A stretch of DNA of 64,000 nt, taken from the NCBI GenBank assembly GCA_905178155.1, contig CAJINV010000002.1, positions 11,971,102-12,035,101 of the forward strand, written 5' to 3'. Positions 16,598 through 48,655 of the stretch are shown here, piece after piece. The notes under the pieces were generated by a model. The model ran no database searches. It saw only the letters and a list, made by a program, of their open reading frames with translations, and was not told where the DNA came from. Position numbers and translations under genes: made by a program. Each line of letters starts with the position of its first letter. The first letter of the stretch is position 1. Origin of the DNA: Amoebophrya sp. A120. Its lineage: Eukaryota > Protista > Dinoflagellata.

Positions 16598-18157
16598 ATG
16601 AAACTTTTATGCTTTCTCGGGCCGCCCGCATCCGGTAAAGGCAGTTACACGAAGCTTGTGCTCGAAACCCTCAAAAGGGTCGCGGCAAGGAGAGACCCTA
16701 CCTCGCAGTGGCACCACAGCGGGGCAGCGGAGCACGTTTTGGCGAAAGATGCAGAAGGCCAAGTTCTTAAGTCGAGCGGTTTCCAACATCATCCAAGCGC
16801 GAGGCTTTACAGGCACCATAATCTTCCTGTCCAACACTTCGAAAAGGTTGTCGCCTCGGACCTTATCAAGAAGGAGATGCGTGAGCAAACGGTCTTTGGC
16901 AAAGAGATGCAACCCTACATGGAACGCCACGAGCACGTATCAAATGTAAAAATGTCTGGGTCTGGAAGATTTCTAGGTTTGTCATGCATATTTTCCATGA
17001 CCCATGATGTCTGTGATGCATGCCGCAGCATCACAGATTTTTAGAGCGCTTTGTGATGCCTCCACAGCATCAGAAATGACCTCTCCGCGTAGCACAAACT
17101 GGAGTCCTCTTGCTGGTCATGCAATACAAATTTTCTCAGAATCCAGAGACAGCAGCACAAGTTGCAATCTTCCAGACCCAGACATTTTTGCATTTGATAG
17201 CACGTTCCCAGTGAGCTGATGGTGGAGACGCTGTGTGCGCACCTCGAAGAAATGGCCGCGCAGAGGAGAGGAGGTTCTTCACTTGAGAAAGATAAAAGTG
17301 TCATCAACCACCTCAACGTTTTGCTCGACGGTTTTCCTAGATCTGTGGACCAGGCAGAAGCGTTTCTAGCCAAGACGAAGAGGAGGCGACGGCTTGTTTC
17401 CGATCAGGAATTAGACGGAGAGATGGACGCCAACCCGCGTGGGGAATCTCGTCTTTCCCTTCGTTTTCTGCATCTCGATCTGAAGCGCGAGTGGGCCCGG
17501 GCAAAGGCGGTTGGGCGACTGGTCTGTCCGGATTGCGATTTTCCGTACAACGACGCAGAGGTACGATTGGACGCAGTAGATACAGCGAGTCAACAAAATC
17601 TTGCTCGCGCGCTTGAAGAGGACATTTATGATTATGACACTCCCTACACTGACACGCGAGAAGAAAAAGCAAGAAAGCGGGACAAGCAAGAAGAACGGCG
17701 CGTGTGGTCTGCCGACTTGCCGCCGGAACCCAAATGTGGGCGGAAACCTGGATGCGGCTACCCAAACAGCCTGATCCGTCGTGACAGTGCGGAGGTGTTT
17801 GACCACCGGTATGAAATCTATCTGAAAACCGAATTTCCGGTGGTGGAGTACTTCACCACGATGGCTGAGGCAGAGAAGCAGGAACTTGTAAATCGAAGCC
17901 GCAGAAAAATAGGAGCAGATGCAACAGATTTGAAAAATATGACCTCTACTGAGAATTGTCGTGATAGTAGCACTAGCACGAAAATCTCTTCCGTGAAAAT
18001 GACCGGCGGGTATCGGACGATGTGTGATGCGATTGTGAAAGAGGTGATGCATCTGCTTGATCTCGACCGTGACGAAAGTTGTAGCAACGAAACGGTTTAT
18101 CCTCTGGAAGAAGTGCAGAAAGAAGCCCATCTTGTGCTTGACGAGTGGGAGCAATAG
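16598..18157 (+). CDS. ADK: Adenylate kinase family protein (exons 16598-16937, 17205-18157; 430 aa)
   Basis: P-loop GPPASGKGS. The NMP-binding region SDLIKKEM...MERHEHV|PSELMV is restored across the introner, followed by LLDGFPRSVDQAE and a LID starting GRLVCPDC. Confidence 0.88.
16938..17199. mobile_element. Introner family A (262 bp) in ADK
   Basis: TIR TATCAAATG(T/C)AAAAATGTCTGGGTCTGGAAGATT; direct repeat GCACG/GCACG; removal restores the frame. Confidence 0.92.
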
Positions 18158-19548: not shown

Positions 19549-22500
19549 ATGTCGGTGATGGATTTCCGAGACGAGGTGATCCAGCTGACTCCGTCAGGCG
19601 TGAAGTACAAGGTGTGCGGCAGGCTAGGGCGCGGCGGCAGTGCAGACGTGTTTAAGGTGCAATGCTTGTACATCCCAGACGCGTTTAAGCAGACCCAGGC
19701 GCAGCGCGTGCAGGTGTTGGAGGAGCAGCTGCTGTCGAACGCCGGAAAACTGACCTACCTCACCCCGCCCTCGGGCGCCGGCTCCAGCACGGTCTCCGGC
19801 GGCAGCACCAGCGCCACCGGGGGGGCGCAGAAGCCGCAGCAGATGCAAACCCTAGGGATGGCCACGAGCAGCTCCAGCAGCTCGATGCAGCCGCCCATCC
19901 TGCCTGCGGTATCCTTGATAGCCAACGACAAGCACCCCGAGCTGTCGGGGACGGGCAGAAATCAGATCGTGAAGCGCAGGCTCTCCGACCTGGTGGAGGA
20001 GGGCAACGAGGACTACAACAACGTTTTCGACGAGAACGACAATCCGAGCGGGTCCGACCTCAACACGGCCGCCGCCTTGCAAGCCCTGCGCGGCAGTGCG
20101 GAGGGCCGGGAAGGCTCGGCGCGGAGAAACAGCACTCGGTCGTCTGCGGCCGAGATGGAACAAAATAGTACAAGTAGCGGCACGGGCGGGGCGGGCAGCG
20201 GTTCCGGGGGTGCGCCCGGGAGTGGCGGCCATCCGAGGTCGCGGTCCGGCGAAGTCGTGCAGTACAGCACATATCAAACAAAAAAAGTTCGTCACGATCA
20301 CTCATGCGCATTTTTGCAATGCAAAACTCTCCGTCATGCGTAAAAATGCATCACAGCCAAACTTCATAAGGGATTTCCCTAGTGTTTCTGCAATACAAAG
20401 AAAAGCTGTCGTGATGCTGAAAAAATTTGTAATGCAAAACCTGCAAGGTAGTGACTGTGACAAACTTTTTTCTCTCCATAGCACGCCCGGATCCTACAGT
20501 GGACTCAACCAGGTGGGCGAGGAAGTGGTGTCTATCAAAAGGAAAAATCCCCCCTCCCCACATCAAAACGAAATTTCTGATGCTGGATTTGAGTACACAA
20601 ATCAGGTTTGTATTGCAGGAAAGCATTGCAGTCAGGTCCCCAGGCTAGGTAGGGGCGTATGCGTTTAGTTGTTCAGCATGGCAAGCAGCTCCCTTCTAGG
20701 CCCAAGAGCATGACAAATCGCTTCCATAGTGGGGCGGAAGCTTCTGCCCTTGTCTTCTTGCAATACAAATGCGATTTTCGACCTCAAATCACCTCCAGGG
20801 CTACGTGCGACCCCTCCGACGCTGCGTGTGGAAGGAGGAAGTTCGGCGTGTCGGGTGAGGGACCCCCGACGGCTGGCCTACGGATATCAGGTGGATCACA
20901 GGCTCAAATCAGCAACACAAATTTTCGGAAACATACCTTTTCGATATGGGGAGGGGGGATTTTTGCTTTTGATAGTCTCCAACCCGAGGTCGCGGTCCAA
21001 CTCCCCGGATGCGCGCCCGCGACAACCGGCCGAGGCACAGACGATCCAGAGCGCGGAGGGGATTGCGACGCCGGACTGGTACCAGGCACCCGGAAGCAAC
21101 GCGCAGTCTCTGGCCCCAAACGCCATAGCAGGCAGTATTAACGTGGCAACATCGCTCGCACCCGGGTCGGGCCCGGGCAGCGGCATGAACAAGACAAATT
21201 CAAACAGCGACGCCGGGACGCAGAAAGAGGGCAGCGTGCACCCGGCTATCTACGACCCGCATTTGTTGGAGAACTACCAGATTCCGATGTTGGAGGAGGG
21301 CAAGTTTTACGCGTTGAAGTCCGTGATGGCCCACAATGCAGCGGAGTTCCAGGTCTTCCTGCGGGAGGTGGACCTGTTGCAGAAGCTGGCGGGGAACCCC
21401 TACGTCATCCACTTACTCGATGTCACCGTGTTGGAACAGGATAGACAGGTAGTGAGTCAGGCTTATTATGTAAAAACTGAATTGTGCGAGAACAAGTGCG
21501 CGCAAGGGGTGAAAATTGTATGCTTGATGAAGATTTTGTACGCAAACAAATCAAAAATGACTTGAAAACGAATTGAATCTGAAGTCTTCCAAAATTACAA
21601 CAGCTCTTCTTGGTACTCGAGCTTGCAGACACAGATTTCGGGCGGTATCTGACCCTGAACCATAATCTGACCGCGCAACAAATATTGGACTTCTGGGTGC
21701 AGATGGTGATCGCCGTCAGAACAATGCACCGAGACCACGACGTCATCCATTTTGACTTGAAGCCAGCGAATTTTTTGATGGTACAATTTTGAATGTCAAT
21801 GTCTACGGTCTTCTTTATTGAGAATGTGTCAAAGCGAATCCGATTAATCATTAGCAATACAGGGCAATGTGCGTTTTCTCGCACACAGTGTGCGTTTTCT
21901 CGCACATCAGTAGCAAAGAAAAGTAGCACATAAAACGAAAACTTCTCATAATTGGTCACCACAGGTAAATGGGCGGCTCAAGCTGGCGGATTTCGGTCTT
22001 GCGCGGCAGCTGGGCGACGAGGCCACGCACGTCTCTAGGACAAACCGCGCGGGCACACTGAAATACATGGCCCCTGAGTGTATCTATCAGCCGCACGCGC
22101 AGAAGTTGCGACTGGGCAAGGAGTCGGACGTATGGTCTCTGGGGATTATCCTGTGTCGAATGATTTACAACACAACACCGCACGCACACTTGCAGGACAA
22201 CCACACAAGAATGCTCATCGCCATTTCCGACACCAGAACAAAGATCAATCTGGTGGACTGCCCACGACTTTACCTTAGGGACGACGGAGTGACGGACCAG
22301 AATATGCGAGAGGTATAATGTCCGTGTTTGCTTTCACCAGACCAACGGCAACGAACTCAAACTATTCATTGTAGTGATGAAAATAACAAGGTCTTGTTCA
22401 TTTTCTGCAGTTGAAGTTGTATACAACCAGGATACTTGTTTGGCTGTGCAAAATACCCTAGCAAACCGCATTTTGTTTGCACATGATTTTTTGTATGCCT

Positions 22501-25500
22501 TCCACTTTTCCACCCGATCCCTCACTAGGTCCATGATTGGATGATGAACGTGGCCCGGGGGTGCCTGATTTTCGAGCCGCACGCGCGGTTCAACTCTGAG
22601 GACCTGTACATGATCCTGAACCGCGCCAAGTTTCCGACCGTGGCCATCATCGCGATGCTCCGCGACAAGACCGACCAGTACACGGTACTGGATGCCATTC
22701 CGGAGTCCGAGGGCGGTGTGTACGGGGCGATGGGACCCTCGGCGATCCCGCGGAAGCGGGACCCCCACTTTCGCGAGAAGGACGACGACGAGGGGACCAA
22801 GCAGTTCGGCCCCACCGGCATGTTCGACGATGCCAAAACCATGCGGGCATTACAAGAATTAGCTGCTGAGTATTGAAGATTTTTGATGTTTGTACGTTGC
22901 ACCCAAGAACTCGTCTGTAGTTTTTCATCATCCATGGCTTGCCATCTTGCATGTCGAGATTCATCTTCCATGGACGACGCATGATCTTTGCTGTATATGA
23001 ATATTATCGACGTGATTTTTCCCTGGACACCGACATTGTTGATATTGTCACACACTACACATCTACAGGGATTTGGATCTTGAGAAACAGGGTCTCCTGG
23101 AGGATATCGAAGAGGACGGGGAATACGACAGCGACCTATCAAATGTAAAAATGTCTGGGTCTGGAAACTTGTAATGCTGAGTGACGTAGCATGAGGAACC
23201 CACAAATGACGGCCCAGCATGACAAGTTTCTGAACTTCTAAGTGTTGCCTATTCTGCATGACAAAGTACGACTCTGCATCACAGAAAAAAAAGGTTTTTG
23301 GGTAACGCGCATGACAGACTTGAGAGTCCTGCTGGCCTAGCATGACAAACCTTGCATTTTTCCAGACCCAGACATTTTTTGCATTGGATACGACCTGGAT
23401 ACAGACGACGAGCTTCTGTCGGAGGATATGCATTGCAAAAGTATCGTACTAGTATGAATCGCAATACAAATTTTCCCAGAAGGAAAAATGGAATTTGTAA
23501 TGCTGATTTCGCTAAGAAACANGACCGGTTCTTCCATATCAAAGTGAAAAAAGCCCCCACCCCATATCGGAAACAGAAGATGCGCGAATTTGTGATGCTG
23601 TATTTGAGTACACAAATCAGGTTTGTATTGCAGGAAAGCATTGCAGTCAGGTCCCCAGGCTAGGTAGGGGCGTATGCGTTTAGTTGTTCAGCATGGCAAG
23701 CAGCTCCCTTCTAGGCCCAAGAGCATGACAAATCGCTTCCATAGTGGGGCGGAAGCTTCTGCCCTTGTCTTCTTGCAATACAAATGCGATTTTCGACCTC
23801 AAATCACCTCCAGGGCTACGTGCGACCCCTCCGACGCTGCGTGTGGAAGGAGGAAGTTCGGCGTGTCGGGTGAGGGACCCCCGACGGCTGGCCTACGGAT
23901 ATCAGGTGGATCACAGGCTCAAATCAGCAACACAAATTTTCGGAAACATACCTTTTCGATATGGGGAGGGGGGATTTTTGCTTTTGATAGTCTCCAACCC
24001 GAGGTCGCGGTCCAACTCCCCGGATGCGCGCCCGCGACAACCGGCCGAGGCACAGACGATCCAGAGCGCGGAGGGGATTGCGACGCCGGACTGGTACCAG
24101 GCACCCGGAAGCAACGCGCAGTCTCTGGCCCCAAACGCCATAGCAGGCAGTATTAACGTGGCAACATCGCTCGCACCCGGGTCGGGCCCGGGCAGCGGCA
24201 TGAACAAGACAAATTCAAACAGCGACGCCGGGACGCAGAAAGAGGGCAGCGTGCACCCGGCTATCTACGACCCGCATTTGTTGGAGAACTACCAGATTCC
24301 GATGTTGGAGGAGGGCAAGTTTTACGCGTTGAAGTCCGTGATGGCCCACAATGCAGCGGAGTTCCAGGTCTTCCTGCGGGAGGTGGACCTGTTGCAGAAG
24401 CTGGCGGGGAACCCCTACGTCATCCACTTACTCGATGTCACCGTGTTGGAACAGGATAGACAGGTAGTGAGTCAGGCTTATTATGTAAAAACTGAATTGT
24501 GCGAGAACAAGTGCGCGCAAGGGGTGAAAATTGTATGCTTGATGAAGATTTTGTACGCAAACAAATCAAAAATGACTTGAAAACGAATTGAATCTGAAGT
24601 CTTCCAAAATTACAACAGCTCTTCTTGGTACTCGAGCTTGCAGACACAGATTTCGGGCGGTATCTGACCCTGAACCATAATCTGACCGCGCAACAAATAT
24701 TGGACTTCTGGGTGCAGATGGTGATCGCCGTCAGAACAATGCACCGAGACCACGACGTCATCCATTTTGACTTGAAGCCAGCGAATTTTTTGATGGTACA
24801 ATTTTGAATGTCAATGTCTACGGTCTTCTTTATTGAGAATGTGTCAAAGCGAATCCGATTAATCATTAGCAATACAGGGCAATGTGCGTTTTCTCGCACA
24901 CAGTGTGCGTTTTCTCGCACATCAGTAGCAAAGAAAAGTAGCACATAAAACGAAAACTTCTCATAATTGGTCACCACAGGTAAATGGGCGGCTCAAGCTG
25001 GCGGATTTCGGTCTTGCGCGGCAGCTGGGCGACGAGGCCACGCACGTCTCTAGGACAAACCGCGCGGGCACACTGAAATACATGGCCCCTGAGTGTATCT
25101 ATCAGCCGCACGCGCAGAAGTTGCGACTGGGCAAGGAGTCGGACGTATGGTCTCTGGGGATTATCCTGTGTCGAATGATTTACAACACAACACCGCACGC
25201 ACACTTGCAGGACAACCACACAAGAATGCTCATCGCCATTTCCGACACCAGAACAAAGATCAATCTGGTGGACTGCCCACGACTTTACCTTAGGGACGAC
25301 GGAGTGACGGACCAGAATATGCGAGAGGTATAATGTCCGTGTTTGCTTTCACCAGACCAACGGCAACGAACTCAAACTATTCATTGTAGTGATGAAAATA
25401 ACAAGGTCTTGTTCATTTTCTGCAGTTGAAGTTGTATACAACCAGGATACTTGTTTGGCTGTGCAAAATACCCTAGCAAACCGCATTTTGTTTGCACATG

Positions 25501-26726
25501 ATTTTTTGTATGCCTTCCACTTTTCCACCCGATCCCTCACTAGGTCCATGATTGGATGATGAACGTGGCCCGGGGGTGCCTGATTTTCGAGCCGCACGCG
25601 CGGTTCAACTCTGAGGACCTGTACATGATCCTGAACCGCGCCAAGTTTCCGACCGTGGCCATCATCGCGATGCTCCGCGACAAGACCGACCAGTACACGG
25701 TACTGGATGCCATTCCGGAGTCCGAGGGCGGTGTGTACGGGGCGATGGGACCCTCGGCGATCCCGCGGAAGCGGGACCCCCACTTTCGCGAGAAGGACGA
25801 CGACGAGGGGACCAAGCAGTTCGGCCCCACCGGCATGTTCGACGATGCCAAAACCATGCGGGCATTACAAGAATTAGCTGCTGAGTATTGAAGATTTTTG
25901 ATGTTTGTACGTTGCACCCAAGAACTCGTCTGTAGTTTTTCATCATCCATGGCTTGCCATCTTGCATGTCGAGATTCATCTTCCATGGACGACGCATGAT
26001 CTTTGCTGTATATGAATATTATCGACGTGATTTTTCCCTGGACACCGACATTGTTGATATTGTCACACACTACACATCTACAGGGATTTGGATCTTGAGA
26101 AACAGGGTCTCCTGGAGGATATCGAAGAGGACGGGGAATACGACAGCGACCTATCAAATGTAAAAATGTCTGGGTCTGGAAACTTGTAATGCTGAGTGAC
26201 GTAGCATGAGGAACCCACAAATGACGGCCCAGCATGACAAGTTTCTGAACTTCTAAGTGTTGCCTATTCTGCATGACAAAGTACGACTCTGCATCACAGA
26301 AAAAAAAGGTTTTTGGGTAACGCGCATGACAGACTTGAGAGTCCTGCTGGCCTAGCATGACAAACCTTGCATTTTTCCAGACCCAGACATTTTTTGCATT
26401 GGATACGACCTGGATACAGACGACGAGCTTCTGTCGGAGGATATGCATTGCAAAAGTATCGTACTAGTATGAATCGCAATACAAATTTTCCCAGAAGGAA
26501 AAATGGAATTTGTAATGCTGATTTCGCTAAGAAACAAGATTTGTCATGCGTGGTTGCAATTAGTACGAGTGCGATACTTTTGCACAGGATAGAGGAGGAA
26601 GAAAAGCGAAACTCAAGCTGTATGACCATCCTCATTGTTCTCCTCTCTATCATCGTCGCAGGTCTCATCGGCTGCATCATCGCCGCGGTCATGCTGCATC
26701 AGAAGAGAATGCAGTCCTCCACGTAG
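19549..26726 (+). CDS. MPS1: Mps1/TTK-like protein kinase with C-terminal transmembrane segment (~777 aa if the 3-kb duplication is collapsed)
   Basis: Exons 19549-20271, 20486-20532, 20980-21448, 21604-21780, 21965-22312, 22529-22869, 23069-23136, 23396-23426 and 26597-26726 form one open frame. Motifs are LGRGGSADVFKV, FYALK, FWVQMVIAVRTMH, IHFDLKPANFLMVNGRLKLADFG, GTLKYMAPE and SDVWSLGIILCRMIY. There are four GT-AG introns and four introners. Confidence 0.75.
20272..20480. mobile_element. Introner family B (209 bp) in the kinase gene
   Basis: TATCAAACAAAAAAAGTTCGTCAC...GTGACAAACTTTTTTCTCTCCATA; direct repeat GCACA/GCACG; reverse-complement relative of 39628-39833. Confidence 0.9.
20533..20974. 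mobile_element. Introner family C (442 bp) in the kinase gene
   Basis: TIR TATCAAAAG(G/C)AAAAATCCCCCCTCCCCA; direct repeat GTGTC/GTCTC; removal gives EEVVSNPRS. Confidence 0.9.
20587..26536 (+). repeat. Apparently identical 2.9-kb direct duplication (20587-23521 = 23602-26536, offset 3015), probable assembly artefact
   Basis: The ORF tracks are identical at offset 3015. The junction has an N at 23522 followed by ~95 nt identical to 28465-28560, which belongs to another gene and introner. Confidence 0.9.
23137..23390. mobile_element. Introner family A (254 bp) in the kinase gene; duplicate copy at 26152-26405
   Basis: TATCAAATGTAAAAATGTCTGGGTCTGGAAA...TTTCCAGACCCAGACATTTTTTGCATTGGATA; direct repeat CGACC/CGACC; removal gives EYDSDLDTDDELL. 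Confidence 0.9.
26442..26591. mobile_element. Introner family D (150 bp) in the kinase gene; truncated copy at 23427-23521
   Basis: TATGCATTGCAAAAGTATCG...CGATACTTTTGCACAGGATA; direct repeat GAGGA/GAGGA; removal joins LLSE to EEEKRNSS and the TM exon. Confidence 0.85.
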
Positions 26727-28189
26727 TAAACTGTTGTACACAATGACTTTCCTGGGGGTTACCTACCACGACAACCACAAGCGACACAAAATAGAAGCAA
26801 GCACCTGTAGTTCTCATGAGTCATAAGTACATACATGAATCCACAGCGAGTTACCTAATCATGTTCTTGTTCCAATTATGTTCCTTTCGTACGAGTAGTT
26901 GAGTTCCTATCATACAATACGCCTTCGCACACGGTGCGAACTCCTTGTCTAATCATGATATATTTACATTCACTAGATGCGATCGCGCATACAAGCCAGT
27001 GAACTGTTCTTTTTTCTGTTTGACGATTGTGCTCTGACATGTTTGGCTTTTTCAAAATCTTTATCATCTTGACAAACGTGGTGGTGAAAATATTTAAGGC
27101 GAACTCAGGGCGGGCCTGTAAGGTCATGCTCCTCCGTGATGTTACTGTATAATGAAGCAAAGACCAAAGAGGTCGTGGGTTGCTACGAGTACAATGTACA
27201 GCCTGCTGTCGATCACATTGCTATGGTTTGAGTATACGATATTTCTATACAACTGAATTTGTGTACATGTTGGAGCAAAATTCTTGTCTCTCTCCGGAGA
27301 CGACGACGCGACTGACAATATTAGATAATATTGAGCGATTTTGTCACAATCTGCTTCTGCGGCCAGAACCTTTTACTGGGACAGACATAGAAGATCGGGG
27401 ATTTTGTGACTTTTCCAGGTTGTCGCTACACGGTATCTCACGACACGACGTTGCTGGCCATTGAAAGGAAAAGAACGCTATTCCCCGCACTGCTAGTCTC
27501 ATTTTGGTTCGCGTTCAAGCAACGAACGGATGCTGCAGTTTCAACAGCAAGTTTTTACACGAGAAAAGACGGGCTGCGATGGAAAAGATCGTCGAAAAAA
27601 GAGGAGAAAGCGCTGCATGCTCCTGAGGGTTCCTCGACGGTGCCGAACTTGCGTGTTCAACATATCGCGCGCCGTGGTCTGTCCGCAAAAACGATGATAT
27701 GTTCAGGATTGAAGATCCTCTGTGTGATGTTGATCACGTCATCTCAACAAGCGCTTCCTGGCAAAATCGATGTAATGTATGCGTGTTTTCGCTTTCGGTT
27801 TCGATTAGCGTACGGTACAGCTACAGGTATTCTTATTTCTTGTGCTTTTCGTGGATCCCTCCCTTTTATTTTCTGTTGCTTTTCGTTTTGCGCAATTCGC
27901 AAGTTCTACGAAAGTTCAGATGTTGTTTGTACAAGAACATCACAGTTTCGGTCGAGAATCTGCGCCGACGCAGCTGCATTGATCCACTCTCGAGATAGGT
28001 AGAAGAAAAAGTCGAGCACCAACTGGTGCTGCTCTAGAAATTCCTCACATTTCTTGCTTCTGTATCTTGTTCCTGTAGTTCTAGTTGGTAGGTTCTTTAT
28101 TGGTGAAAAAATGTTTCGCAAGTTGAAAAGAATGAAGCGAATTTCGGTTTTGTTGCTTCTGTTTTCGCACAACGCGTACTTTTTCCAGC

Positions 28190-31100
28190 TCTGCGTCTGT
28201 TTGTACCAGGAGCTGTTTGAAGACTACTCTGGTGCCCCGAAAAAAACACGAAGCTCCACGTCCTCAACAGACAAAGGTACTACAGAAGAGGCGGACGCTT
28301 CGTCTTCTTGGCGTGCCAGCTTCAATGAGGAGCTGGAAAAGCTTGTGTACGTGGGAGAGATAGAGGATGGGTACAACGCCGCGATCTCCAAGCAGACACT
28401 TACGCGCGAGGCACGGGAAGTGCTTAAGGACTCAACGAAACACAGTCGGCACAAAGCGTTCTGGGACCGGTTCTTCCATATCAAAGTGAAAAAAGCCCCC
28501 ACCCCATATCGGAAACAGAAGATGCGCGAATTTGTGATGCTGTATTTGAGTACACAAATCGACTTGTATTGCTAGAAGGCCAAGAGACGAAGCTGCGGCC
28601 TAAATGGCAGGTAATCTGTCATGCTGTTTCCCACTTCCAGTTGCCTCCTGTCATCCTGGAGCTGCAAGGCTTTCCCACGCTAGACAGCACTACAGTGCGC
28701 ATCTTTTGCCTTCTGGCATCACAAAGGTGATTTGTGACCCCAAATCTGCATCACAGATTTCCGTTTTGATATGGGGAGGGGGCATTTTTCATTGTAATAT
28801 TCCAGGAAGACACCTTGGTGAAACCAGACACGGCTCGGCAAAGCAGCACCCGGCAGGGCGGAGGTGAGGCCAGAAGAGCCGTGGACGGTAAGATGAATTT
28901 GTAACAGTAAAAATCGTAATTGATGTAATACAGAACCTAGACGACCTTACTGAGCGTAAGCAGGAAGATGGAGCGAGAAAGAAAAAAGAACCATTCTATT
29001 CATTTCCCTTCTCCAAAACCAAATCCCTTGGCTCTGTTGTGATCATCTTTTTCGCAAACGACTGAAGGGCGCAGCCTGTCCGATTGGTCCTCGCAATCTT
29101 GCACGCACACAAAGCCTGCGGGCGAGTTGCGGCCCTGGTGGATGGTGGAACTGGATGCGAACATTCCGATCGGCACCGTTCACATCCTGAATCGCAAAGA
29201 AGCGGCCGATATGCATTGCAAATACGTATTGGTCTGGACGAAAGATGGAGCATGTATTGTGTGTCTTCAGTCTTTATTTGCATGATTCCCCAAGAACCAG
29301 TTTTGTATGACAAGGAAAAGTAGGAGCGCCACTTTCTTGATCATGCAAAATAGACGAAGTCTGTATAAATGCGAAGCCCCCCGTGGGAAAATTGTCATGC
29401 TTTGACGCGCTAGAAATTTTTCTGAGACTCATTCATATACACTTCACAAAGTTCCAGACCCAGGAAAAAATACCCCATGCATAGCCGATCGACTGTCCGA
29501 GTTCGAGGTCCGGATTGGAAACGATCGAAATCTCGCGTTGGACAATTCCCATTCTTCAAGTGGGAGAAGTAGAGGCTCCTCCACCAGCACTTCTTCTGGA
29601 GCTTCTTACTCGGTCTGTCGCGGCGATTCCCGGAACCCCGGGCCGGGAGCCTGGGCGGTGGTGGACTGCAGTGGCTTTGAAGGGAAGTACCTCGCGGTCG
29701 TATTGACCGCAGACGATCCAAAGGCGGTGCTCACACTCTGTGAGGTATCTGTAAGTCGCAAAAATGTTGATGCAAGGTGTACTGTGTGGAGCTCGAAAGT
29801 GCTACTCTAGAAAGTGAGAAATTTAAAAGCGATATCAGACTCCAGCCTGTGGTGTGCCCGTTGTGCAACAGGTTTTTTCCCCTGACTATGATAATGGTGC
29901 CCGTGGTCGATTCTGCTTCTATGCTCCACACACCAGGTTCTTGTCTACCCGCAGTCGATTCGACATCACCCTTTCTTCCTTTCCGCTGCCCTGGCATTCG
30001 ACGAGTATACGCAGATTTTGCGCAGCTCCAACGAGAAACGGGAAGCCTATTACGTCCTTGGGTTGGCGAAGTTAAGGCAGCTACTCAGACAGTTGTTCGC
30101 GCTCGAGAAGCTGAACGGCATGCAAGACGAGGAGAAGAGTGGCGGGATGAGAACAAGAAAACAAATTGCCACAAGTTCTTCGTCGAGGGTTAAGAACTCA
30201 GCGAACTGGATCGAGCAGGTCGAGGAACTGTACACAGCGCTATCGCTGGAACTGCCCACGGAATTTCGCCAGCGACCGGAGATACTGCGCATGCGCGCCG
30301 AACTGTACGCCGAGGTCGGTTTTTCGCCCTCCTGCGCAGAGGTTTTGCAGCACGGAGCAGGAGGAGCCTCCTCAGGCGGGGACTCGGCATCTGCCTTCGC
30401 AGGCACTGCGGACGGGTTGCCGGGACAGGAGGAGGGCGACGATTCCGCCCTGGACACAAGGTCCACCTCCGCCATCGCGACGCTGAAGGGCAAGGGGAAG
30501 TTGCACCAAAGGAAAGAGGCTGCGCTAGCAAAAGCAGCAAGCAATAATAAAGCGATAACGGCTTCTGGTGAAAAATTATCCAGTTCCTCAAGTAGTACCA
30601 GTTCTAGCTCAACAATTCCCCCCGCGGATCAGCTGGATGGAGCGACGAGTCCGGCGCAGAATAGCATCTGTTGCAAGGACAGCATTCTCGGGACGAACAG
30701 TGGGTGCCTGTCTACTGCCTTGGCCTTGTACAAGTTTGCGGAGAACTTGGAGGAGGAGGCGGATTTGCTATACGAGAAAGCAATCGAGCATATCCTGAGT
30801 AAAAACATCCCCACACCAGAGTCAAGATGGGGATTTTGCAACACAAACCTAGAACTTTTGGGGGTCACGCAATACAAGTTGCAGTCCGTAGTGTAGTGCA
30901 GGTTCGCAAGGCCAGCTGCATCAGAAATCCATCTGCTTATCCTGTTTACAGCATTACAAATTACAAAACACGACTAAAAATGCCTCTCCTGGCGATGCGC
31001 ATTACAAATGTTCCTGTCATTGCAAATCTGCATGACAACTCCGTAGCCATTTTGGCTCAAGGCTCTGCCTTGTTGCCTGAGATCCTACAAATCTAGAATA

Positions 31101-34100
31101 GGGGGAGCTATGCCGTAGAGTAGATTTGATAGCTCACAATCATTTTACCACCACTGACACCACGTCGGTATCTCCCCCGACTCCCTGAAGAGGAGTTTCG
31201 AAAGAAGTAGATAAACACCCGAGCGTGGCGGGTCCGCTGTGCCCCCCTTTACAGTAGCCTACTAGATCTCAGGCCCCCCTATACACTAGCCGAGATCTCA
31301 GAACCAGCGCCCCGTGCTGCCGAGTACCCCTCCTAAAAATGACCTCCTCCCCGCCCGGACACGGCGCCTGAATCCTGCAGCAGTCGTCCACGCACCATCC
31401 TGCGCAGCAGCAAGGTCCTTGCTTAGCCTGACGGGCATGGGCAGCAACTTCTCCATGTTCGCGGCAGAACCGGAATACGAAATCAGACTGGGGCAGGAGT
31501 TCTGGGAAGGGTTAAGTCCACCATGCCGCCGGTGGATTAAGCAGCTCGGGTAGGCTTCGGCAAACGGACACCAGGTCGAGGTTTCGCGAGCGTGGATGCC
31601 CCCCAGCTCGCCCAAGCCAGTAGCAACAAGCTCAATCGAGTCTTGTTCCCCAGCGCAATAGATGCGATCATGTAGGGGCGCACAATAGATGCGAGCTCAA
31701 GGCTTGGCAGCGCTGGGGGAGATGGTGTTGCCCACGACGCGGGAATATTCCCGCCGTGGAATCGAGAATGAACCTGGCGCCGAACGTTTTACGCTTCTGT
31801 GTTGCTCCCGCGTGGGCAGCGGTCCGCGTGCAGAAACGTGCTCTACTTGAGCAGCCTTGCCAATCGTGTATCTGTACCCCGCACTTTCGGTCATGTGTAA
31901 AGCAATCGCCGATCATGATCGCCAAATCCGGCGGTCTAGTGGATCAGCATTAAATCTCGCACCTCTTACCTTTAATTTGGATGTTTAAACATCACTTCAG
32001 GCTGGCGCTTGTCGCTTAGTGCCTCCAGTGAATGCATTCGTCCAGACAGTAACAACTGGTTTGCCGCAGGCTGCAGCTTTCTCTTGTAGTTGTTGGCCTG
32101 GCTGTACATCCCCGTTATAGTGGTTGCGAGTTGGAAGTTTGCGAGAATCAGAGTAGGGAATTGTTGGCAAAAAAAAGTGAGGCGTTGTTCAGTTGGCAAG
32201 TTGGCACAGTGTGGATGGTTGCGTTATTTTATTTCACCAGAGCTCCAGTTATTTTCCTTCACCAGAGATCCCTTCTAGTTATTTTCCTTCACCAGAGCTC
32301 CAGGTAGTTTATGCGTGATCCCTGGTTTTCCGACAGAGCACTGTCTTGCATGCGTCAGGAAAGCCGCCTTGGGTGCCACGGTACTTGAGGACGTGTTATA
32401 TGTCTCGGGCGCACGTACATACTAGCCTGCAGGGACGGCGGAGCCGGAAAAAAATTGCGAAGTATGTTTGGTGGCGATAACAGAGTTGGAATATAGTGGC
32501 CGGGAGATGATGGTGATGGCACTTAGGTGTCCGCCTGACCCACCCGCCCTGCGTCTCAGGCCATCTGCGGCTATGGCACAATGGGGGGGCAAAGTGTGTC
32601 GCATTTTGTTTAGCATGACAACTCTGGTGTGGGGACGTTTTTACTCAGGATAGAGCAGGGCTTTTCCGCATGGAAGAGCTACTTCCAGACGTGCGAAATT
32701 TTCCTGCCGTTTCTGTTCCAGAAGCAGATATGGATTGCAAAAATGTCTGGGTCTGGAAGATTGCAACTTGTCATGCTAAATCCGAATCATGCAGAAATCT
32801 GTGTTGCATGAGTGCCAAAAGCTGTCCACTTTCGACCAAGTTTGGAGGGAGTTTCTCATGCAGGATTGGCATGATAGAGACTTCGCAGAATCTGTCATGC
32901 GAAGTACCGCATTCCAGACCTCATGGGTCATGGAAAATCTGCATGACAAGTTTTCACTTTTCCAGACCCAGACATTTTTGCAATCCATAGCAGAGCAGCC
33001 AGAACAACAACCTGGCCTGGGACCGGAAGCAGCCGGAGGTGGCCGACCTCGTCGCCGTGCTAGAGAAGAACAAAGTTTTGCTCGAGCAGGACTTGAAAAA
33101 GTTGCTCATGGACCCGCTGGGCTTGTTGAGCTCGTTGCTCAACGAGGCAGCAGTCAATGCCAAGACACCGCCTCAACTTCCGATTGGGGGAAGCAACTCG
33201 GCTTCAGGTACTAGTTCTTCCACGGGCGGCGCCGACCACGCTGCAAGAGACCGAGAACAAACGCTAGACTCCTTTGCGCGACTTGTCCGGGAGAAGCATT
33301 CGAAGAGCCAACTCGGGAAAAATTTGGCAGGAGAGCAGGACGATGGCAGTGCCGAGATCGATGATGGGAGGAATTCAAAGCGAGGCAAAAGGTCAGCACA
33401 AGTAGATGATCATCAAGAGCAGTACGTTTTTAACCGAAATACGTTCTTCCACGTAGCCGCGACGAAGCAGGGCGCGTGGATCAAGTTCGTGCTCTATACG
33501 GGGGAATACGGCTGGAACCCGAGTTACTGTCCGGCGAATGTCGCGGAGAATTACGCGACCAGAAACTTCAACTACGAGCAAAACCTCGTGGGCAAGCAGG
33601 TGACGAGCGAGAGGGAGCTGGCAATCGGGAAGAACAAGCTTCACGCGTGCACCATTTTCGAGAACAACAACCACCTGCTACCCGGGCACGAGTTCAAAGA
33701 TTACTACTTTCTGGCAAACAACGAGGAAGTGTCCTTCCAGTTGTTTCTTCCGCGAACGAAAATAGGCACGCACAGCGGCGGATCCAACACGCGGGTCAAC
33801 TTAGACTTGAATTTGTTCAACGTAGCCGCGGAGAATAAACGCAGTCCAGAGGAAGCAGACGAGTCGACCGGAAGAAACACAAAGAAACGGAAGAAGAACA
33901 AGAAGCAAAAGAACAGCACCACTACCTCGAGCGACCGTGAACTGACGTCGTTTATCGAAAAGGAAATCACGAGTAATGCACTGTTGCAGCCGTTCGTCAC
34001 TGGGGAGTTCTACCGCGGACAAATCGTAGAAGTCGGAGCTGCATCTTCGTCACGTACTGGACTGGGAGTAGAAGTGGCAGGTGAAGAAGATATGTCATTT

Positions 34101-34454
34101 GGCAAAAAACTACGTGCAGATGAAAATACGAGCGACGTCGTGCACAGGAGGCATTTCTTTCGACAACGCATTGGCAATCGGGAATACCAACATGCAGTAC
34201 TAGAAGAAGAAGGCGCTGCGACGAAAAGCAGGAACGTCATCTCCAACGAGGACGTCGTAGTGTACGACGACTGCCAAGATCTCTCGATAGAAGTCGGAGA
34301 CCTCCCCGTTTTCAAGTTCCAGGTGGGCATTATGCACCCGTCACTGATAGAGGAACTGGCGGCGCGAACGCGGCCAGCTGGCAGTAGTAGTGGCGGATCA
34401 TCAAGTACTGGTACCGCAGGGTCAGGAAGGAGAGGGAAAGGCGGAGAACTGTGA
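28190..34454 (+). CDS. Large multi-exon protein with an F-type lectin (fucolectin) domain; 5' end unresolved
   Basis: Removing four introners and the GT-AG intron 28888-29067 gives ARQSSTRQGGGEARRAVDG..SCTHT..PWWMVELD..IGTVHILNRKEAADRLSEFEVRIG..GKYLAVVL..LTLCE. The frame continues through 30015-30790, 32658-32728 and 32995-34454. The junction near 29745-30014 is uncertain. Confidence 0.75.
28479..28799. mobile_element. Introner family C (321 bp)
   Basis: TATCAAAGTGAAAAAAGCCCCCACCCCATATC...GATATGGGGAGGGGGCATTTTTCATTGTAATA; direct repeat TTCCA/TTCCA; removal gives WDRFFQEDTLV. Confidence 0.9.
29210..29483. mobile_element. Degenerate introner (274 bp, A/D-related) inside the lectin motif
   Basis: TATGCA...TGCATA ends with inner GGTCTGGA/TCCAGACC; direct repeat GCCGA/GCCGA; removal restores NRKEAADRL. 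Confidence 0.85.
31040..31061 (+). other. Complete dinoflagellate spliced leader (DinoSL) relic at the 5' end of the nested insertion
   Basis: TCCGTAGCCATTTTGGCTCAAG matches the consensus DCCGTAGCCATTTTGGCTCAAG exactly. It is followed by GC, not GT. Confidence 0.95.
32227..32302. repeat. Short degenerate tandem repeat (TTTATTTTCCTTCACCAGAG unit, about 3 copies)
   Basis: TTCACCAGAG occurs three times with 26-30 nt spacing. Confidence 0.7.
32729..32989. mobile_element. Introner family A (261 bp)
   Basis: TIR TATGGATTGCAAAAATGTCTGGGTCTGGAA; direct repeat GCAGA/GCAGA; removal gives FQKQSSQNNNLAW; opposite orientation to 39301-39564. Confidence 0.92.
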
Positions 34455-35225
34455 TCGCATAAATCTTTGTACGTTTTAATAGTACGAAAATGATGAAAAT
34501 GAGGTGCGAGAGCGAGAGCGATCATTTCTTTGATTAATGACGCGCAACTTTTCAATTTCAAGTGATAGTACAGATCGATGCTGTTTGCTTGTTTTATTTG
34601 TTTGGTGTTGATGGAGCCGCGTCGTTCCGGTTGAAAGCCTCAAGAAATTTAATGGAAGGACAACATACATTCCACGACGCGCGGGCGCGATGGAGCATTT
34701 TGACTCCCAGCGAACGAACGCGAACTCTATTTGATAGATTGATTACCTATGCGTCTAAGAAAACTAGCCGGGCCGTTTCTTGACGTCCCCGGTTCGCAGA
34801 AATTTTCTTACGTACGGGTTTCTTCACAAGGAAGTGATGAAATTGCGACACGCGCAGCGACAACATTTGCGACAGCGATGTGCTTCATCTTGCCGAAGAG
34901 GTACAACAGCGAACCTATCGAAACCTATTGAAAGTGCGTTCACCGAGATCAAGCTTTTGATTGTATTTGATACCAACCTGTATGGCAGCTTTAATCTCTA
35001 TTGCTGCACCCTCGCACGGAAGTGTACGCTAAGTAGCCCTAGCAACGTCTAGTTGTTGAAATTTCTCCACGCCTTTGATATCTGATTCACTACTGATTTT
35101 TAGCCAACGGAAACAACACTGACTTGTCCGTTTTTGAGTTGTCTCCTTGTTTGTCGTGTCAAAATTTCTTTTCACGTAGAATTGTTATTCGAAAAATCTT
35201 CACGAAAACGAAAACCAACCTGACC

Positions 35226-36098
35226 ATGGATTGTTATTGTAAAAGGAAAAGGTCGGTTCCGGTTGTCAAAACGATCTTGACAGCCACTTATTGTTATTCT
35301 CTGGCAACCGCGGTAACCGCTGCCTTTGTAGTTCCCCAGCCGGAGCCGGACTACAAGCGACCACGTATTGACGAAGTACTCCGCCCCCGGTATGGAAGCA
35401 GTATGATGAATTACTCGGGCAGTAAGAAGAAGAACCATCAGTTTTTATTCACAACTAACGAAGATGAACCACATGCACAAGCAGGTGGCGGTGTTGCTGA
35501 AGATATTTCCATGCACCACGCGCAATACCGAAGCTGCGAAGAGCGACTACAAACTCACCACACCGCTACTACTACTACCGAGCAACCGAACTGGCAGCCT
35601 GCCGCGTCTCCACCAGCCTCGCCTGCCACGTCATCTGCGTCAACACCTTGCCCTCCGGCATTCAAATTTGACCGTCGTGGCAGCGGTTCGCAAGACCCGG
35701 AACAACTGCAACAGCCGTCGCAGCAAAATGGACATGCATCATTCCTAGAGAGGAAAGCAAAGGCTCCAAGACTCCAGGATGATAGGACCTCCACGTCGGG
35801 CGAAGTACACACCTACAGCACTGTCCTTCCAACATCCGACCAGAACATGGGCGCTCGTGATGGCGTGGGACCAGCGCAGCTACCAAAGCCGGCGGAGCTG
35901 GGAGAGGACCGCAATAGCGCGGCGAGCCTTGTCCTTCCAGGATCGGGCGGTCGCGCCAGACCGGGACCACTTTTGGCGACAGCGCTGAGTCTGCCGACGC
36001 CCTGGCAGACGTCGGACCCGGACCTTCAGCCGCAGGGGCTACATGACCTCTACGGAGACTTGCCCCCAGCCTTCTTTGAGTTTGGCATGGGCGGATGA
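35226..36098 (+). CDS. Hypothetical, probably secreted, low-complexity protein
   Basis: Open frame from the first ATG, with a hydrophobic N-terminal segment (ILTATYCYSLATAVTAAFVV) and an SFLE motif. Confidence 0.55.
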   Translation: MDCYCKRKRSVPVVKTILTATYCYSLATAVTAAFVVPQPEPDYKRPRIDEVLRPRYGSSMMNYSGSKKKNHQFLFTTNEDEPHAQAGGGVAEDISMHHAQYRSCEERLQTHHTATTTTEQPNWQPAASPPASPATSSASTPCPPAFKFDRRGSGSQDPEQLQQPSQQNGHASFLERKAKAPRLQDDRTSTSGEVHTYSTVLPTSDQNMGARDGVGPAQLPKPAELGEDRNSAASLVLPGSGGRARPGPLLATALSLPTPWQTSDPDLQPQGLHDLYGDLPPAFFEFGMGG

Positions 36099-37071
36099 TG
36101 TTTTACCTTTTTACTTTTATAAATAAAGATAAGTATATGTTTTGCTTTTGCACCACTGTGCATAAGATCACGACGCACTTAACAACTGATCCTCAACTTG
36201 AGATGCTCTGGCCTGTTGTCTATAACTCGAGAAAAGAAGCGCAGCCATGCTTCACCATTCAGTTTTCTTTCACTTTGTTCATCGACTTGTTGATACCTGT
36301 ACATAAATTTTTCGGCCATCATCTCTTGGACATAAATTGTTCGGCCACGTATACGTTAGTTAGTACGCGCGGAGTCACTTACCGTACTCAAGAAGAAAGC
36401 TGTTGTGGCTGCTCCTTGAAATACTTTGTATACCATAGACTCAGGCATGATGAATCTTATTTTGGATATCGGATTAGGCTTAGATTTGTCCTGGCTCAGG
36501 TGGATTGTCATAACGTATAACCGCACGACTGTGCATACATATAGCGAACAGACTTTCAAAAAATTATATCGGACCACAAAAAAATAAAGGAAGCCTCACA
36601 GAATAGGGAGGAGGTGCAGAAATTGTGAGCACGACTTGATTGGTGATTTTGCTCAACGAGTGTATGTAAAGCAGATCACTTCACGCACACAAGACAAACT
36701 TCACTTCACAAGTGTGCGTAAAGCTAAAAGAACTAGAAGGTGCGTTTTCATATTTTCTATTTTGCTCGAAGAAGACCAGGATTAGGGGATAGAGTGGAGC
36801 AAGCAATGACGAGCACACTTGTGCCAACTAGTTGTATCAATTGCTTTTGAAAATGAAAACACAGGAAACTCGCTCCCGCGTAAAGATGATCCGCATTTAT
36901 GGAAACCAAACTCAGGGGGGTCGACGTGTGGTGAAAATTTTGCTAGTGGAACTTGAAGGACAGAAGCTCACAGAAAGAAGTGCGGCATGGTCCAAGCTTT
37001 CCCTGAAGAGACGACGTTATTTTTCCGAATTATTTCGCGATGTCGATCATGTGCATTAGCGAAAGGAAGAA

Positions 37072-37122
37072 AAAAGCAACGATATACGACTATAATAAAA
37101 AAGCAACGATATACGACTATAA
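37072..37122. repeat. 24-bp tandem duplication
   Basis: AAAAGCAACGATATACGACTATAAT occurs twice. Confidence 0.8.
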
Positions 37123-37880
37123 TGGAGCTGCAAGCTTCAGCCTTTTCATACAGTGTATGAAAATAAAACTCATTTCTTTGACGAACTGCTATCGCTTGAG
37201 AATGAGAAAACAAAAAGACCGAAAGCACTTGAAGAAAATAAAACTGAACTATGGGGCAAGCGTTGATCAAATCGTTAGTTGCTGTTTAACAAAAGTTCCG
37301 CCCTTTTCTTGGTGAAGAAGGTGGACAGATGGAATGCGAGATAACAAAGAAATGAATCCTCAAGCCGTTTGCTACTTTGCTTAGCCCCCCACAAATAATC
37401 CGGGGATGACTTTGCGAGGATTGCGGACACCTTTGTTGCGATATTTCATCGAGCCGCTTGCAGCTAGATTGCTCAGCACACCAGAAAAACACTCGGGGGC
37501 AGCTCAATGCTGAAAAGATCTTCAGAAAAAACAGCTTCACTACATGGAGCCCCGTGCTGGGTAATACCACTACTAGTAGTACTGTCTGCAGAATCAACAT
37601 CGTGGCAACTCTCACTGGGCTGGATCGGGGATCGATCGCATTATCGAATTCTGACCCGTTTTACTGGCTAATATCTTCAGGGCAGAGACAATAAAAACGA
37701 AACCGACCACGGAATTGTGATATAACGTTCAAACTCTCATATTTGTACGGCATTGCACTCGCTTCACCGGATTGATTCGTCGACATCGTGAAAGAACAGA
37801 CGTGGGAATTTTCAAGAATTCGTATTTTGACAATTTGTAGTTTTCCAACAACGTATGCGTATCAACATCGACCAGTCAAC

Positions 37881-40277
37881 ATGGCAGAAACATTCCCTAG
37901 TAGTACTGGTGTTTTTTCTTCCTTAGCGGAACTTCCAGCACACCTGCCGGTTGTATTGGAGGGGCAACTACCGCTTTTGTTGCCGCTGAAGGTCGGAAGA
38001 AAAATGCTATACGACGCAGGAGCGGTGTTCCGGCGCAGCGTGGACGACGTTTCGCATTTGCCCGTGGCGGTGCAGGAACTTTTCGCCTCGGTGCCGAAGG
38101 GAGCACTGCCACCCGCGGAAATTTTGCTGACGCTCGGCTGGCTGTTTTTCAATATTCTGTTCAGCTACCTCGGGTTTTCCGTGCTGCTCCAGCCTCGAAG
38201 TAGACCAGAGGTCTCGACCGTGGACGACGATGCTTCTAAAGGTTCAGCTGCAGCCACTTCTGCCAGCGACTCTTCCAGGTCGGCGCCTCCTGGCAAGAAG
38301 AACCAGGGCAACTACACCAAGAATGGCACTGCGGAGGACCCCAACAAGTCTTCAGCGTCCGACATGTTCACCATTCCGCCTTTGATTGATCTGAGCGAGA
38401 CGAGAAGCAGGACGAACAACCTGCTATTCTTCCGCCGCACGATTTTCGCCCTGGTACTGGGCGTTGTGCCGATTTACGTCGTGTACAGTTCGGTGTTCCT
38501 GCAGCCGTTCCTGATCTTTCTGTTTTGCAGCTCCGTCGCGGTCCTGTACTTCCCCCCGGTGCTCACGACCCTGATCGCCATTGCCGTGCTGAGTTGGTGC
38601 CACCTGAACGTGATGGGGAGCATGGGCCGTGGCGCCGACGCCAACGCGGACGTGGCGGGGGCAGCTTCGGACCACACCGACTACAGCGACCCAAGCGGGA
38701 TTTTCATGCTGTTTTGCGTGCGGCTGTCGCAGGCCGCGTGGGAGGTCTACGACGGAAAGATGCTGGCGCGAAACCCGACCAGCCCCCTGTCCGCGAACCC
38801 GAAGGTGGACCAGTTTCGCCGCACGCGGGCGGTGGTGCCGCCGGAGAGACCAACGGTGTCTTGGATTCTGGTGTTTTCCGCCTTCTGCGTGTTCTTCCCC
38901 GGAATTTTAGTGGGGCCCTCCGGCGGCCTGCGCGATTTTGTCGACTTTCTCGACATCGCGGGCAGCTGCAACGACGGCAGTGCCGCCAAAATGAACTTGT
39001 CCCGTCGTCCCGTGAACAAGCTGAAGATCTTGAAGCTCATCTTCACCGCCCTTACGTGCGCTGCGATCTACCAGGCGGCCAACGTGGTCCTTCCACTGAA
39101 CCGGGACATCCTCGACAACTACTTGCCCACCCTGCCGGTGGTCCTGCGGATTCTGTACCTGACCTTCTCCGTGGACGGCTTTCGCTACAAGTACTACCTG
39201 GTCTGGTCTCTCTCCCTCGCGGCCTCAACCGCGAGCGGGTTCTCGACTGACGACAACGACAAAAACGCGCAGAACGTGGACATCGTGCGCGTGGAAACGT
39301 TATCCAATGCAAAAATGTCTGGGTCTGGAAGAATACGCGATTTGTCATGCAGCTTTTCCATGACACCCATGAGGTCTGGAATGCAGGACCTAGCATGACA
39401 GATTCTGTGCGATCTCTCTCATGCCTATTCTGCATGAGAAACCCCCTCCCGACTTGGTCAAAACTGGACGACTTTTGGTAATCATGCAACACAGATTTTT
39501 GCATGCTGCGGATTTAGCATGACAAGTTGCAATCTTCCAGACCCAGACATTTTTACATTTGATAAACGTCCACCGCCATGGCGGACATGCTGGTCGGGTG
39601 GAACACCAGTGTGAGCTTGTGGCTGAATATGGAAAGAAAAAAGTTTGTCACAGTCACTAACGTGCAGGTTTTGCATGATAAATTTTTCCCGCATCACAGG
39701 TTTTTCTTGTATTGCAGAAACACTAAGGAAATCCCTTATGAAGTTTGGCTGTGATGCATTTTTACGCATGACAGACAGTTTTGTATTGCAAAAATGCGCA
39801 TGAGTGATCGTGACGAACTTTTTTTGTTTGATACTCAAGTGCTCGGTGTTCGAACGTGTAATGGACAGCAGAGTGATCAACCGGTTCTTCCCCAAGTCAA
39901 AAAAACTGCTCGCGACTACCATCACCCGCATCTTCTCCGCGGTCTGGCACGGCTTCCGTTCGGGGTACTACTTGTTCTTCCTCTCAACCGTGCTGGTCAC
40001 CGTGTCCGAGGCCCACCCGGTGCTGCGGTGGCTGGAGGCGAAAGCGCCACTGGTCAAGTGGCTCCTGCATGCCATGTTCTTCAATGTGGTTGCGGTGCCC
40101 TTCGTTGTGCTGACCTGGCAAGACTCCTTGAAGGCCTGGAATTTGGTCTACTACTCCGCTCACATAGTCATGCTAGGCTTCATCGCCTCGCAGCAATTCT
40201 CGAAGTTCTCCAGCTGGAAGCTACCCCCGAGGGCGGGGGAGGAGATCAAGCAAGGGGAAGGGAAAAAGGAGAAGTGA
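37881..40277 (+). CDS. MBOAT-family lysophospholipid acyltransferase (exons 37881-39300, 39570-39627, 39839-40277; 638 aa)
   Basis: Multiple TM segments, FFPGILVGP and RYKYYLVW. The conserved WNTSVSLWLK lies on the 58-nt exon between two introners, followed by the catalytic-His motif SAVWHG and GYYLFF. Confidence 0.9.
39301..39564. mobile_element. Introner family A (264 bp) in MBOAT
   Basis: TATCCAATGCAAAAATGTCTGGGTCTGGAAGA...TCTTCCAGACCCAGACATTTTTACATTTGATA; direct repeat AACGT/AACGT. Confidence 0.92.
39628..39833. mobile_element. Introner family B (206 bp) in MBOAT
   Basis: TATGGAAAGAAAAAAGTTTGTCAC...GTGACGAACTTTTTTTGTTTGATA; direct repeat CTGAA/CTCAA; removal gives WLKCSVFERV. Confidence 0.92.
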
Positions 40278-48555: not shown

Positions 48556-48655
48556 TCATCTCCATCATCATGATATGCATTGATATTGAAGGTACGACGC
48601 GACGGGGTGGGTTGGTTTTTGATGAAGATACGGCGACGGCGATAACGCGATCTGC

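What the first reader, a model, noticed from the sequence alone, without database searches (positions are those of the whole stretch)
20267..39838. All three direct-repeat mismatches are synonymous codon changes
Seen: nine repeat pairs are identical. The three that differ are GCACA/GCACG (Thr ACA/ACG), GTGTC/GTCTC (Val GTG/GTC) and CTGAA/CTCAA (Leu CTG/CTC). Inference: a freely evolving intronic copy should also show non-synonymous differences. Either both copies can enter the mRNA (sliding junction), or the intronic copy is constrained by the excision mechanism. With n=3 this is only suggestive, but these sites are natural markers for the true cut position.
Basis: partly seen in the sequence, partly recalled or inferred. 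Interest (0 to 1): 0.75.

Follow-up and report, generated by a model that had tools for sequence, protein, structure and literature searches.

The report
Repeat mismatches mark fixed intron cut
In a marine parasite whose genes are interrupted by already published transposon-derived introns, the claimed 'only silent mismatches' pattern is a small-sample effect, but the mismatches do place the cut inside the 5-base duplicated target (after base 3, before base 5), likely at one fixed position.

Summary
The repeats are the 5-bp target duplications of published Amoebophrya A120 introners (TAT...ATA). The three named mismatches are real and synonymous. A fourth in the same window (10069/10358, AAGGA/AAGGC) is Lys/Gln and was missed. 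In 200 elements from a related assembly, 12 of 25 well-framed mismatches are synonymous (48%). Strong constraint on both copies is rejected (79%: p=0.0006); weak constraint (56%) is not. The marker idea works. Spliced contigs of one sample keep the upstream base at repeat position 3 at two junctions. The transcript-based annotation keeps the downstream base at position 5 at a third. No second junction form was listed. So the cut lies after base 3 or 4. Repeat composition matches ordinary coding DNA, without GT/AG bias. Of 10 elements with one changed end base, none changed the 5' T or A. This scan noted a fixed -1/+4 register before on other DNA (unchecked notes); one ortholog comparison here leans to cut-after-3. 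A 2.9-kb duplication in the region is likely an assembly artefact.

The parts
20267..20271 (+). upstream target copy GCACA (mismatch at position 5, Thr ACA/ACG); junction not seen in RNA
20272..20480 (+). 209-bp TAT...ATA introner in a Ser/Thr kinase gene; inverted 92% copy of 39628-39833; folds as a hairpin (z -3.3)
20481..20485 (+). downstream target copy GCACG
20528..20532 (+). upstream target copy GTGTC; its G at position 3 is in the spliced contig
   Evidence: loose end of X6 before 23993
20533..20974 (+). 442-bp introner
20975..20979 (+). downstream target copy GTCTC (same letters at 23990-23994 in the duplicated stretch); its C at position 3 is skipped
39623..39627 (+). upstream target copy CTGAA; G at 39625 is kept in the spliced contigs
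   Evidence: joint 39625->39837 in 4 of 4 runs of one sample
39628..39833 (+). 206-bp introner in an MBOAT gene; hairpin z -6.0
39834..39838 (+). downstream target copy CTCAA; positions 1-3 skipped
10069..10362 (+).
16933..17204 (+). 262-bp introner with identical GCACG pair; contig skips 267 bases
   Evidence: X3 record 13
23132..23395 (+). 254-bp introner with identical CGACC pair (duplicate at 26147-26410, where the 259-base skip was seen)
26437..26596 (+). 150-bp introner with identical GAGGA pair; skip 155
28474..28804 (+). 321-bp introner with identical TTCCA pair; skip 326
29205..29488 (+). 274-bp introner with identical GCCGA pair; skip 279
30786..32657 (+). 1862-bp introner with identical GAGCA pair (279-bp type plus about 1583 bp between two 12-nt direct repeats); skip 1867
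32724..32994 (+). 261-bp introner with identical GCAGA pair; skip 266
39296..39569 (+). 264-bp introner with identical AACGT pair; skip 269
53017..53348 (+).
23522..26540 (.). N, then a chimeric start taken from the 28479 element, then a second copy of 20591-23521 with 0 differences in 2931 nt: likely assembly artefact
   Evidence: (X1 contig depth 44.6 versus 42-43 in unique DNA)

Best explanation
The paired 5-mers are target-site duplications of small TAT...ATA transposons that are removed from transcripts together with five target bases, and their mismatches are likely ordinary post-insertion mutations, since a likely fixed cut (after target base 3 or 4) leaves one exonic and one free copy of each base. 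Silent changes can arise in either copy and replacement changes mostly in the intronic one, which gives roughly 40-45% synonymous mismatches, not 100%. The remover is inferred to be a relaxed spliceosome that takes its register from the element ends (the 5' U and A, brought near the 3' end by the hairpin) and not from the target letters. Shown: removal of element+5, the base kept at two junctions in RNA contigs, the residue annotated at a third, the tally, neutral target composition. Inferred: one register for all elements, cut after base 4 rather than 3, the spliceosome as the enzyme.
For: Ten distinct window elements are absent from spliced contigs (nine as joints or pieces that skip element+5, one as a loose end). 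Upstream base kept at position 3 at CTGAA/CTCAA (4 of 4 runs, one sample) and GTGTC/GTCTC (1 of 4 runs); no alternative joint among the 14 listed. Annotated protein keeps the downstream base at position 5, and the source annotation of non-canonical introns was built from transcript alignments (PMC7789003 section 25). Related assembly, 200 elements with at most two mismatches: 12 of 25 mismatches synonymous at frame margin >=6 (hold-out accuracy 210 of 215), 9 of 19 single mismatches, 8 of 18 at margin >=8; expected 36-45%; p for excess over 42% = 0.34. Mismatch per site 3.1%, 3.4%, 6.6% at codon positions 1, 2, 3, the 1:1:2 ratio expected (first frame caller). Non-synonymous cases with frames backed by homology: L027 Gly/Glu, L031 Ser/Cys, L141 Arg/Lys, window 10074 Lys/Gln. 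Elements picked by an exact 23-nt match (likely younger) are mismatched less often (12 of 113) than bystanders (22 of 87), p=0.008. Target composition in gene orientation does not differ from coding DNA at any of the five positions (115 elements, p 0.13-0.97); GT-AG is available at any slide in 5 of 149. Of 10 elements with one changed terminal base, 0 change 5' T1 or A2 (p=0.017), 3 change 5' T3, 7 change the 3' ATA.
Against: Only three junctions were placed, two from one RNA sample and one from an annotation; none tests position 4 directly. At L141 (position 4, Arg/Lys) the A120 ortholog has Lys, the downstream base, which leans to a cut after base 3 or means a conservative exonic change. 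The tally comes from a relative (81% identical over one 97-residue exon), not this genome, and may hold assembly errors. The 95% interval (28-69%) does not exclude both copies being weakly constrained (56%: p=0.27; 66%: p=0.049); the background dN/dS was not measured. Contigs drop rare variants, so minor sliding is not excluded. G at TIR base 4 is rarer at the 5' end (18 versus 35, p=0.027), the opposite of a canonical +5 G. Two of the 10 end-changed elements alter the first A of the 3' ATA, against a strictly required A there, although both have an AG within reach.
Confidence: 0.72

Rival explanations
1. Sliding junction: either target copy can enter the mRNA, so both are under coding selection and only silent mismatches survive.
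For: 3 of 4 window mismatches are synonymous; pooled dN/dS between copies 0.34-0.57 with wide intervals; weak constraint on both copies (56% synonymous) is not rejected.
Against: 13 of 25 mismatches in the related assembly are non-synonymous, including Gly/Glu three times among the listed cases; 79% synonymous rejected at p=0.0006, 66% at p=0.049; one junction form per site in contigs, with single contigs running through the MBOAT junction in four runs.
Confidence: 0.08
2. The excision machinery needs the two copies to match or needs given letters in the intronic copy, for example recombination-like or template-switch removal.
For: Most pairs are perfect: 166 of 200 in the loci, 9 of 13 in the window.
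Against: Such a constraint would not know codon position; mismatches occur at all five positions (6, 6, 7, 5, 9); two mismatched elements are cleanly absent from contigs; mismatch rate rises with a proxy of age; target composition is unbiased.
Confidence: 0.07
3. The register is fixed but set by a non-spliceosomal, structure-guided nuclease/ligase acting on the hairpin, as discussed for euglenid nonconventional introns.
For: Strong hairpins; no GT/AG signal; both orientations of one family occur in genes (20272 and 39628); U1 snRNA not detected in Amoebophrya (PMC7789003 section 10).
Against: End-base changes are asymmetric in gene orientation (0 at 5' T1 versus 4 at its 3' partner), which a pure pairing requirement would not give; U2, U4, U5, U6 and most spliceosomal proteins are reported present.
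Confidence: 0.13

Closest known systems
Introner elements / non-canonical introns of Amoebophrya sp. A120 (Farhat et al. 2021, PMC7789003; sections 10-12, 16, 25, 32, 35 and supplement passages read)
   Same: Same organism by the source's name for a 100% identical protein; TAT-starting inverted repeats with an A run, 3-5 nt direct repeats over the borders, hairpins, variable splice dinucleotides.
   Different: The paper leaves the border position unknown (Fig. 3 legend) and, in the sections I read, does not use repeat mismatches as markers or tally them by codon position. Here the cut is bracketed to after base 3 or 4.
Introners of Micromonas, Aureococcus and Polarella/Symbiodinium (review PMC11282704 passages; bioRxiv 10.1101/2020.10.14.339549 passages)
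   Same: MITE-like elements with TIR and TSD that become introns; mismatched TSDs have been used there to infer splice-site conversions.
   Different: Those co-opt GT/GC/GA or AG from the TSD or element; here the target letters show no such bias, yet a phase bias remains (65:44:36, p=0.01).
Euglenid nonconventional introns and Fritillaria non-canonical introns (review PMC11282704 passages)
   Same: TIR-paired ends, TSD-like repeats at the junctions, non-GT-AG borders.
   Different: Fritillaria introns have preferred AG-AC/AG-AT ends and euglenid ones a pyrimidine|purine tendency; none is seen in the target letters here.

Membership tests
Amoebophrya A120 introner elements | Inverted repeat starting TAT, about seven variable bases, then an A run | tested here: met
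   (position matrix)
Amoebophrya A120 introner elements | 3-5 nt direct repeats overlapping the exon/intron borders | tested here: met
   5-nt repeats; joints fall inside them
Amoebophrya A120 introner elements | Repeated in families across the genome | tested here: met
   self-BLAST; DNA run depth thousands-fold higher on elements; 11 of 13 window elements match locus elements at 79-96% over 150-326 nt, one matches over 29 nt only, 10074 has no hit
Amoebophrya A120 introner elements | Removed from transcripts without GT-AG | tested here: met
   10 distinct elements absent from spliced contigs; GT-AG possible in 5 of 149
Amoebophrya A120 introner elements | Hairpin secondary structure | tested here: met
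   z -6.0 and -3.3 for the 2 elements folded
MITE of a named DNA-transposon superfamily | Cognate autonomous element / transposase | not tested
U2-type spliceosomal intron | GT/GC/GA donor and AG acceptor | tested here: not met
U2-type spliceosomal intron | Lariat with 2'-5' branch at an A; dependence on U2/U5/U6 | not testable with these tools
   needs lariat sequencing or knock-down
   (rare forms would be missed in contigs)

The most novel reading that the evidence does not exclude
A U1-less spliceosome (or an unknown remover) reads a register carried wholly by the transposon ends: intron = last target base + TAT...ATA + first four target bases, needing only the U and A at +2/+3 and an A near the 3' end, with no G at +1 and no AG. 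Any exonic insertion, in either orientation, is then silent, which would explain how tens of thousands of elements invaded coding exons.
Probability: 0.45. Interest if true: 0.75.

Novelty: already known. Interest (0 to 1): 0.42.

Why it matters
The headline pattern is ordinary: it needs no sliding junction and no special constraint. What survives is a method and a constraint. Published work leaves the border of these introns undefined and their removal unexplained. Mismatched target copies place the cut without any bench work, and here bracket it to two positions. A fixed cut that ignores the target letters narrows the mechanism and names the bases to look at for lariats. I did not find the register in print in four full-text searches; subscription papers and supplement figures were not visible.

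Tried and rejected
Scans of prokaryote genomes and viral contigs with the TIR motif found nothing. The first lay was swamped by element copies from the DNA run, so GCACA/GCACG and AAGGA/AAGGC were not read in RNA; lack of cover there is no evidence. The first frame caller was only 160 of 210 correct in hold-out (the test set held some false ORFs) and was replaced; both give the same picture (9 of 21 and 9 of 19 single mismatches). Dropped before the tally: 15 end pairings with 3-5 mismatches (several are mispairings, one is an 8-bp repeat), window duplicates and chimeras, nested elements, and 13 of 38 locus mismatches under the margin or score cut. GC-to-AT polarity as a marker of the intronic copy: 8:9 at positions 1-4 versus 1:6 at position 5, p=0.19, and contradicted at L141; rejected. 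A G bias at target position 5 or AG at 3-4: not found. First protein search missed the 2674-aa annotated protein because of the 2000-residue limit. A second position-4 ortholog test was not done. Two weak candidates (36663-37150, 22363-22423) were rejected as chance: contigs run through the first, and the second lies in a GT-AG intron.
Full report
What the region is. The window holds intron-containing genes on the + strand. Thirteen distinct elements of 150-1862 bp begin TAT, end ATA, carry terminal inverted repeats and sit between 5-nt direct repeats. A window ORF is 100% identical to a protein that its source names Amoebophrya sp. A120. Farhat et al. 2021 (PMC7789003; I read sections 10-12, 16, 25, 32, 35 and supplement passages, no figures) describe these as introner elements and state that the border position is unknown.

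Observation. The three named pairs are present and synonymous. Nine identical pairs is the window-wide count of distinct elements. At that scale a fourth mismatched pair exists, AAGGA/AAGGC at 10069/10358, which gives Lys or Gln. The tally is 3 of 4. The stretch 20591-23521 recurs with 0 differences in 2931 nt after an N and a chimeric start. A DNA-run contig there has single-copy depth (44.6 versus 42-43), so the duplication is likely an assembly artefact; one kinase frame of 776 residues results when a single copy is spliced in silico.

The right null. Each target position has one exonic and one intronic copy. Silent changes may arise in both, replacement changes mostly in one. With 27-29% of possible changes silent, the expected synonymous share is 36-45% for background dN/dS of 0.3 to 0; if both copies were constrained it would be 55-81% for dN/dS 0.3 to 0.1. 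Under 42%, 3 of 3 has p=0.074 and 3 or more of 4 has p=0.20.

Larger tally. A TIR motif scan returned 150 loci; the 80 listed at once and the 70 listed later all come from one assembly. It is a relative, 81% identical to A120 over one exon, that shares the element families. Pairing ends without looking at the repeats gave 175 perfect, 29 one-mismatch, 8 two-mismatch and 15 worse pairs, window included. Frames were called from flanks with the repeat masked. The second caller was right in 210 of 215 hold-out tests at margin 6 or more. At that margin 12 of 25 locus mismatches are synonymous (codon positions 7, 5, 13); 9 of 19 single mismatches; 8 of 18 at margin 8; 15 of 29 with no margin cut. 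None exceeds 42% significantly (p=0.34, 0.40, 0.51, 0.19). 79% is rejected (p=0.0006), 66% is borderline (p=0.049), 56% is not rejected (p=0.27). Four non-synonymous cases have frames backed by homology. Mismatches hit all five positions and are commoner in elements not picked by the exact motif (22 of 87 versus 12 of 113, p=0.008).

Markers of the cut. Runs X3-X6 are guessed to be RNA and are one sample; their contigs skip six GT-AG introns, so they are spliced. Every perfect-repeat element laid is skipped by its length plus five. At CTGAA/CTCAA the joint is 39625 to 39837 in 4 of 4 runs, so the upstream G at position 3 is kept. At GTGTC/GTCTC one X6 contig reads GTG then TC, again the upstream base. 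No alternative joint is among the 14 listed; contigs would hide rare forms. At AAGGA/AAGGC the annotated protein has Gln, which needs the downstream base at position 5; the annotation of such introns came from transcript alignments, so this is indirect RNA evidence. Together: cut after base 3 or 4. GCACA/GCACG was not read. For position 4 I have one indirect case: at L141 the A120 ortholog has Lys, the downstream base, which leans to cut-after-3 but is a conservative change. Earlier notes of this scan on other pieces of the genome report 1 base before and 4 after the element. I had guessed that register before looking; my data allow it but do not prove it.

What sets the register. In gene orientation the five target positions match coding DNA of the same phase (115 elements), and GT-AG is available in 5 of 149. 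Ten further elements with a perfect repeat and one changed terminal base were found: none at 5' T1 or A2, three at 5' T3, two, one and four at the 3' A, T, A (p=0.017 for none in the first two; two of the ten have weak strand calls). With a cut after base 4 the protected bases are intron +2 U and +3 A, as in a spliceosomal donor (established knowledge). The two changes at the first 3' A argue against a strictly needed A there; both elements have an AG within reach. G at TIR base 4 is disfavoured at the 5' end, unlike a canonical +5 G. Target phase is uneven (65:44:36, p=0.01); under cut-after-4 this would be about 45% phase 0, but transposase target preference could also cause it.

Mechanism. 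Shown: removal of element plus five bases; retained base at two junctions in contigs and one by annotation; no synonymous excess over the proper null; no target-letter signal. Inferred: a single fixed register; a relaxed spliceosome guided by the hairpin and the 5' U-A. A structure-guided non-spliceosomal remover remains possible.

Verdict. The elements are known. The synonymous-only pattern is not a real feature. The marker idea is sound and brackets an unpublished border (searches; supplement figures and bioRxiv supplements could not be seen and may bear on this). Interest 0.42.

Noticed in passing
window 20533-26540: 2.9-kb exact duplication behind an N, starting with a piece of the 28479 element joined through a shared 16-nt stretch; likely a misassembly caused by element similarity.
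   Followed up: yes
window 30791-32652: A 279-bp-type introner carries about 1583 extra bases between two 12-nt direct repeats (31030, 32613) and is still skipped whole (1867 bases) in 3 of 4 runs.
   Followed up: partly
loci L001-L150: A relative only 81% identical to A120 over one exon shares the same introner families (79-96% identity), although the paper calls families strain-specific between A25 and A120.
   Followed up: partly
L063 1822-2101: Element flanked by an 8-nt direct repeat instead of 5.
   Followed up: no
loci and window, 145 framed elements: Target begins at codon position 3 in 65 of 145 (p=0.01) with no detectable letter bias; unexplained.
   Followed up: partly
loci and window, 149 oriented elements: TIR base 4 differs between ends in gene orientation: 5' C123/G26, 3' C99/G43/T6/A1 (p=0.003).
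   Followed up: partly
window 1278-1300 and 1584-1605: Lone TIR-like starts without a matching end or target repeat, near an annotated exon end; possibly decayed elements.
   Followed up: no
window 681-11021: The public model (2674 aa) fuses several large ORFs, including a long Cys-rich repeat protein at 1904-7200, into one gene; may be a read-through or annotation fusion.
   Followed up: no
window 56000-61100 and 58509-58670: GC-rich (about 70%) non-genic block with a 162-bp near-perfect palindrome, bounded by a 72-bp inverted repeat at 55829-55899 / 61286-61357; possibly a large transposon.
   Followed up: no
window 46963-48833: Insert with nested inverted repeats (47874-47939 / 48490-48555) between 43-bp direct repeats (46963, 48791).
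   Followed up: no
runs X9, X10 on window 16938-17199: Raw RNA runs with the same species label lay only on element ends, not on exons: another lineage with the same TIR family, or a trace of it.
   Followed up: no
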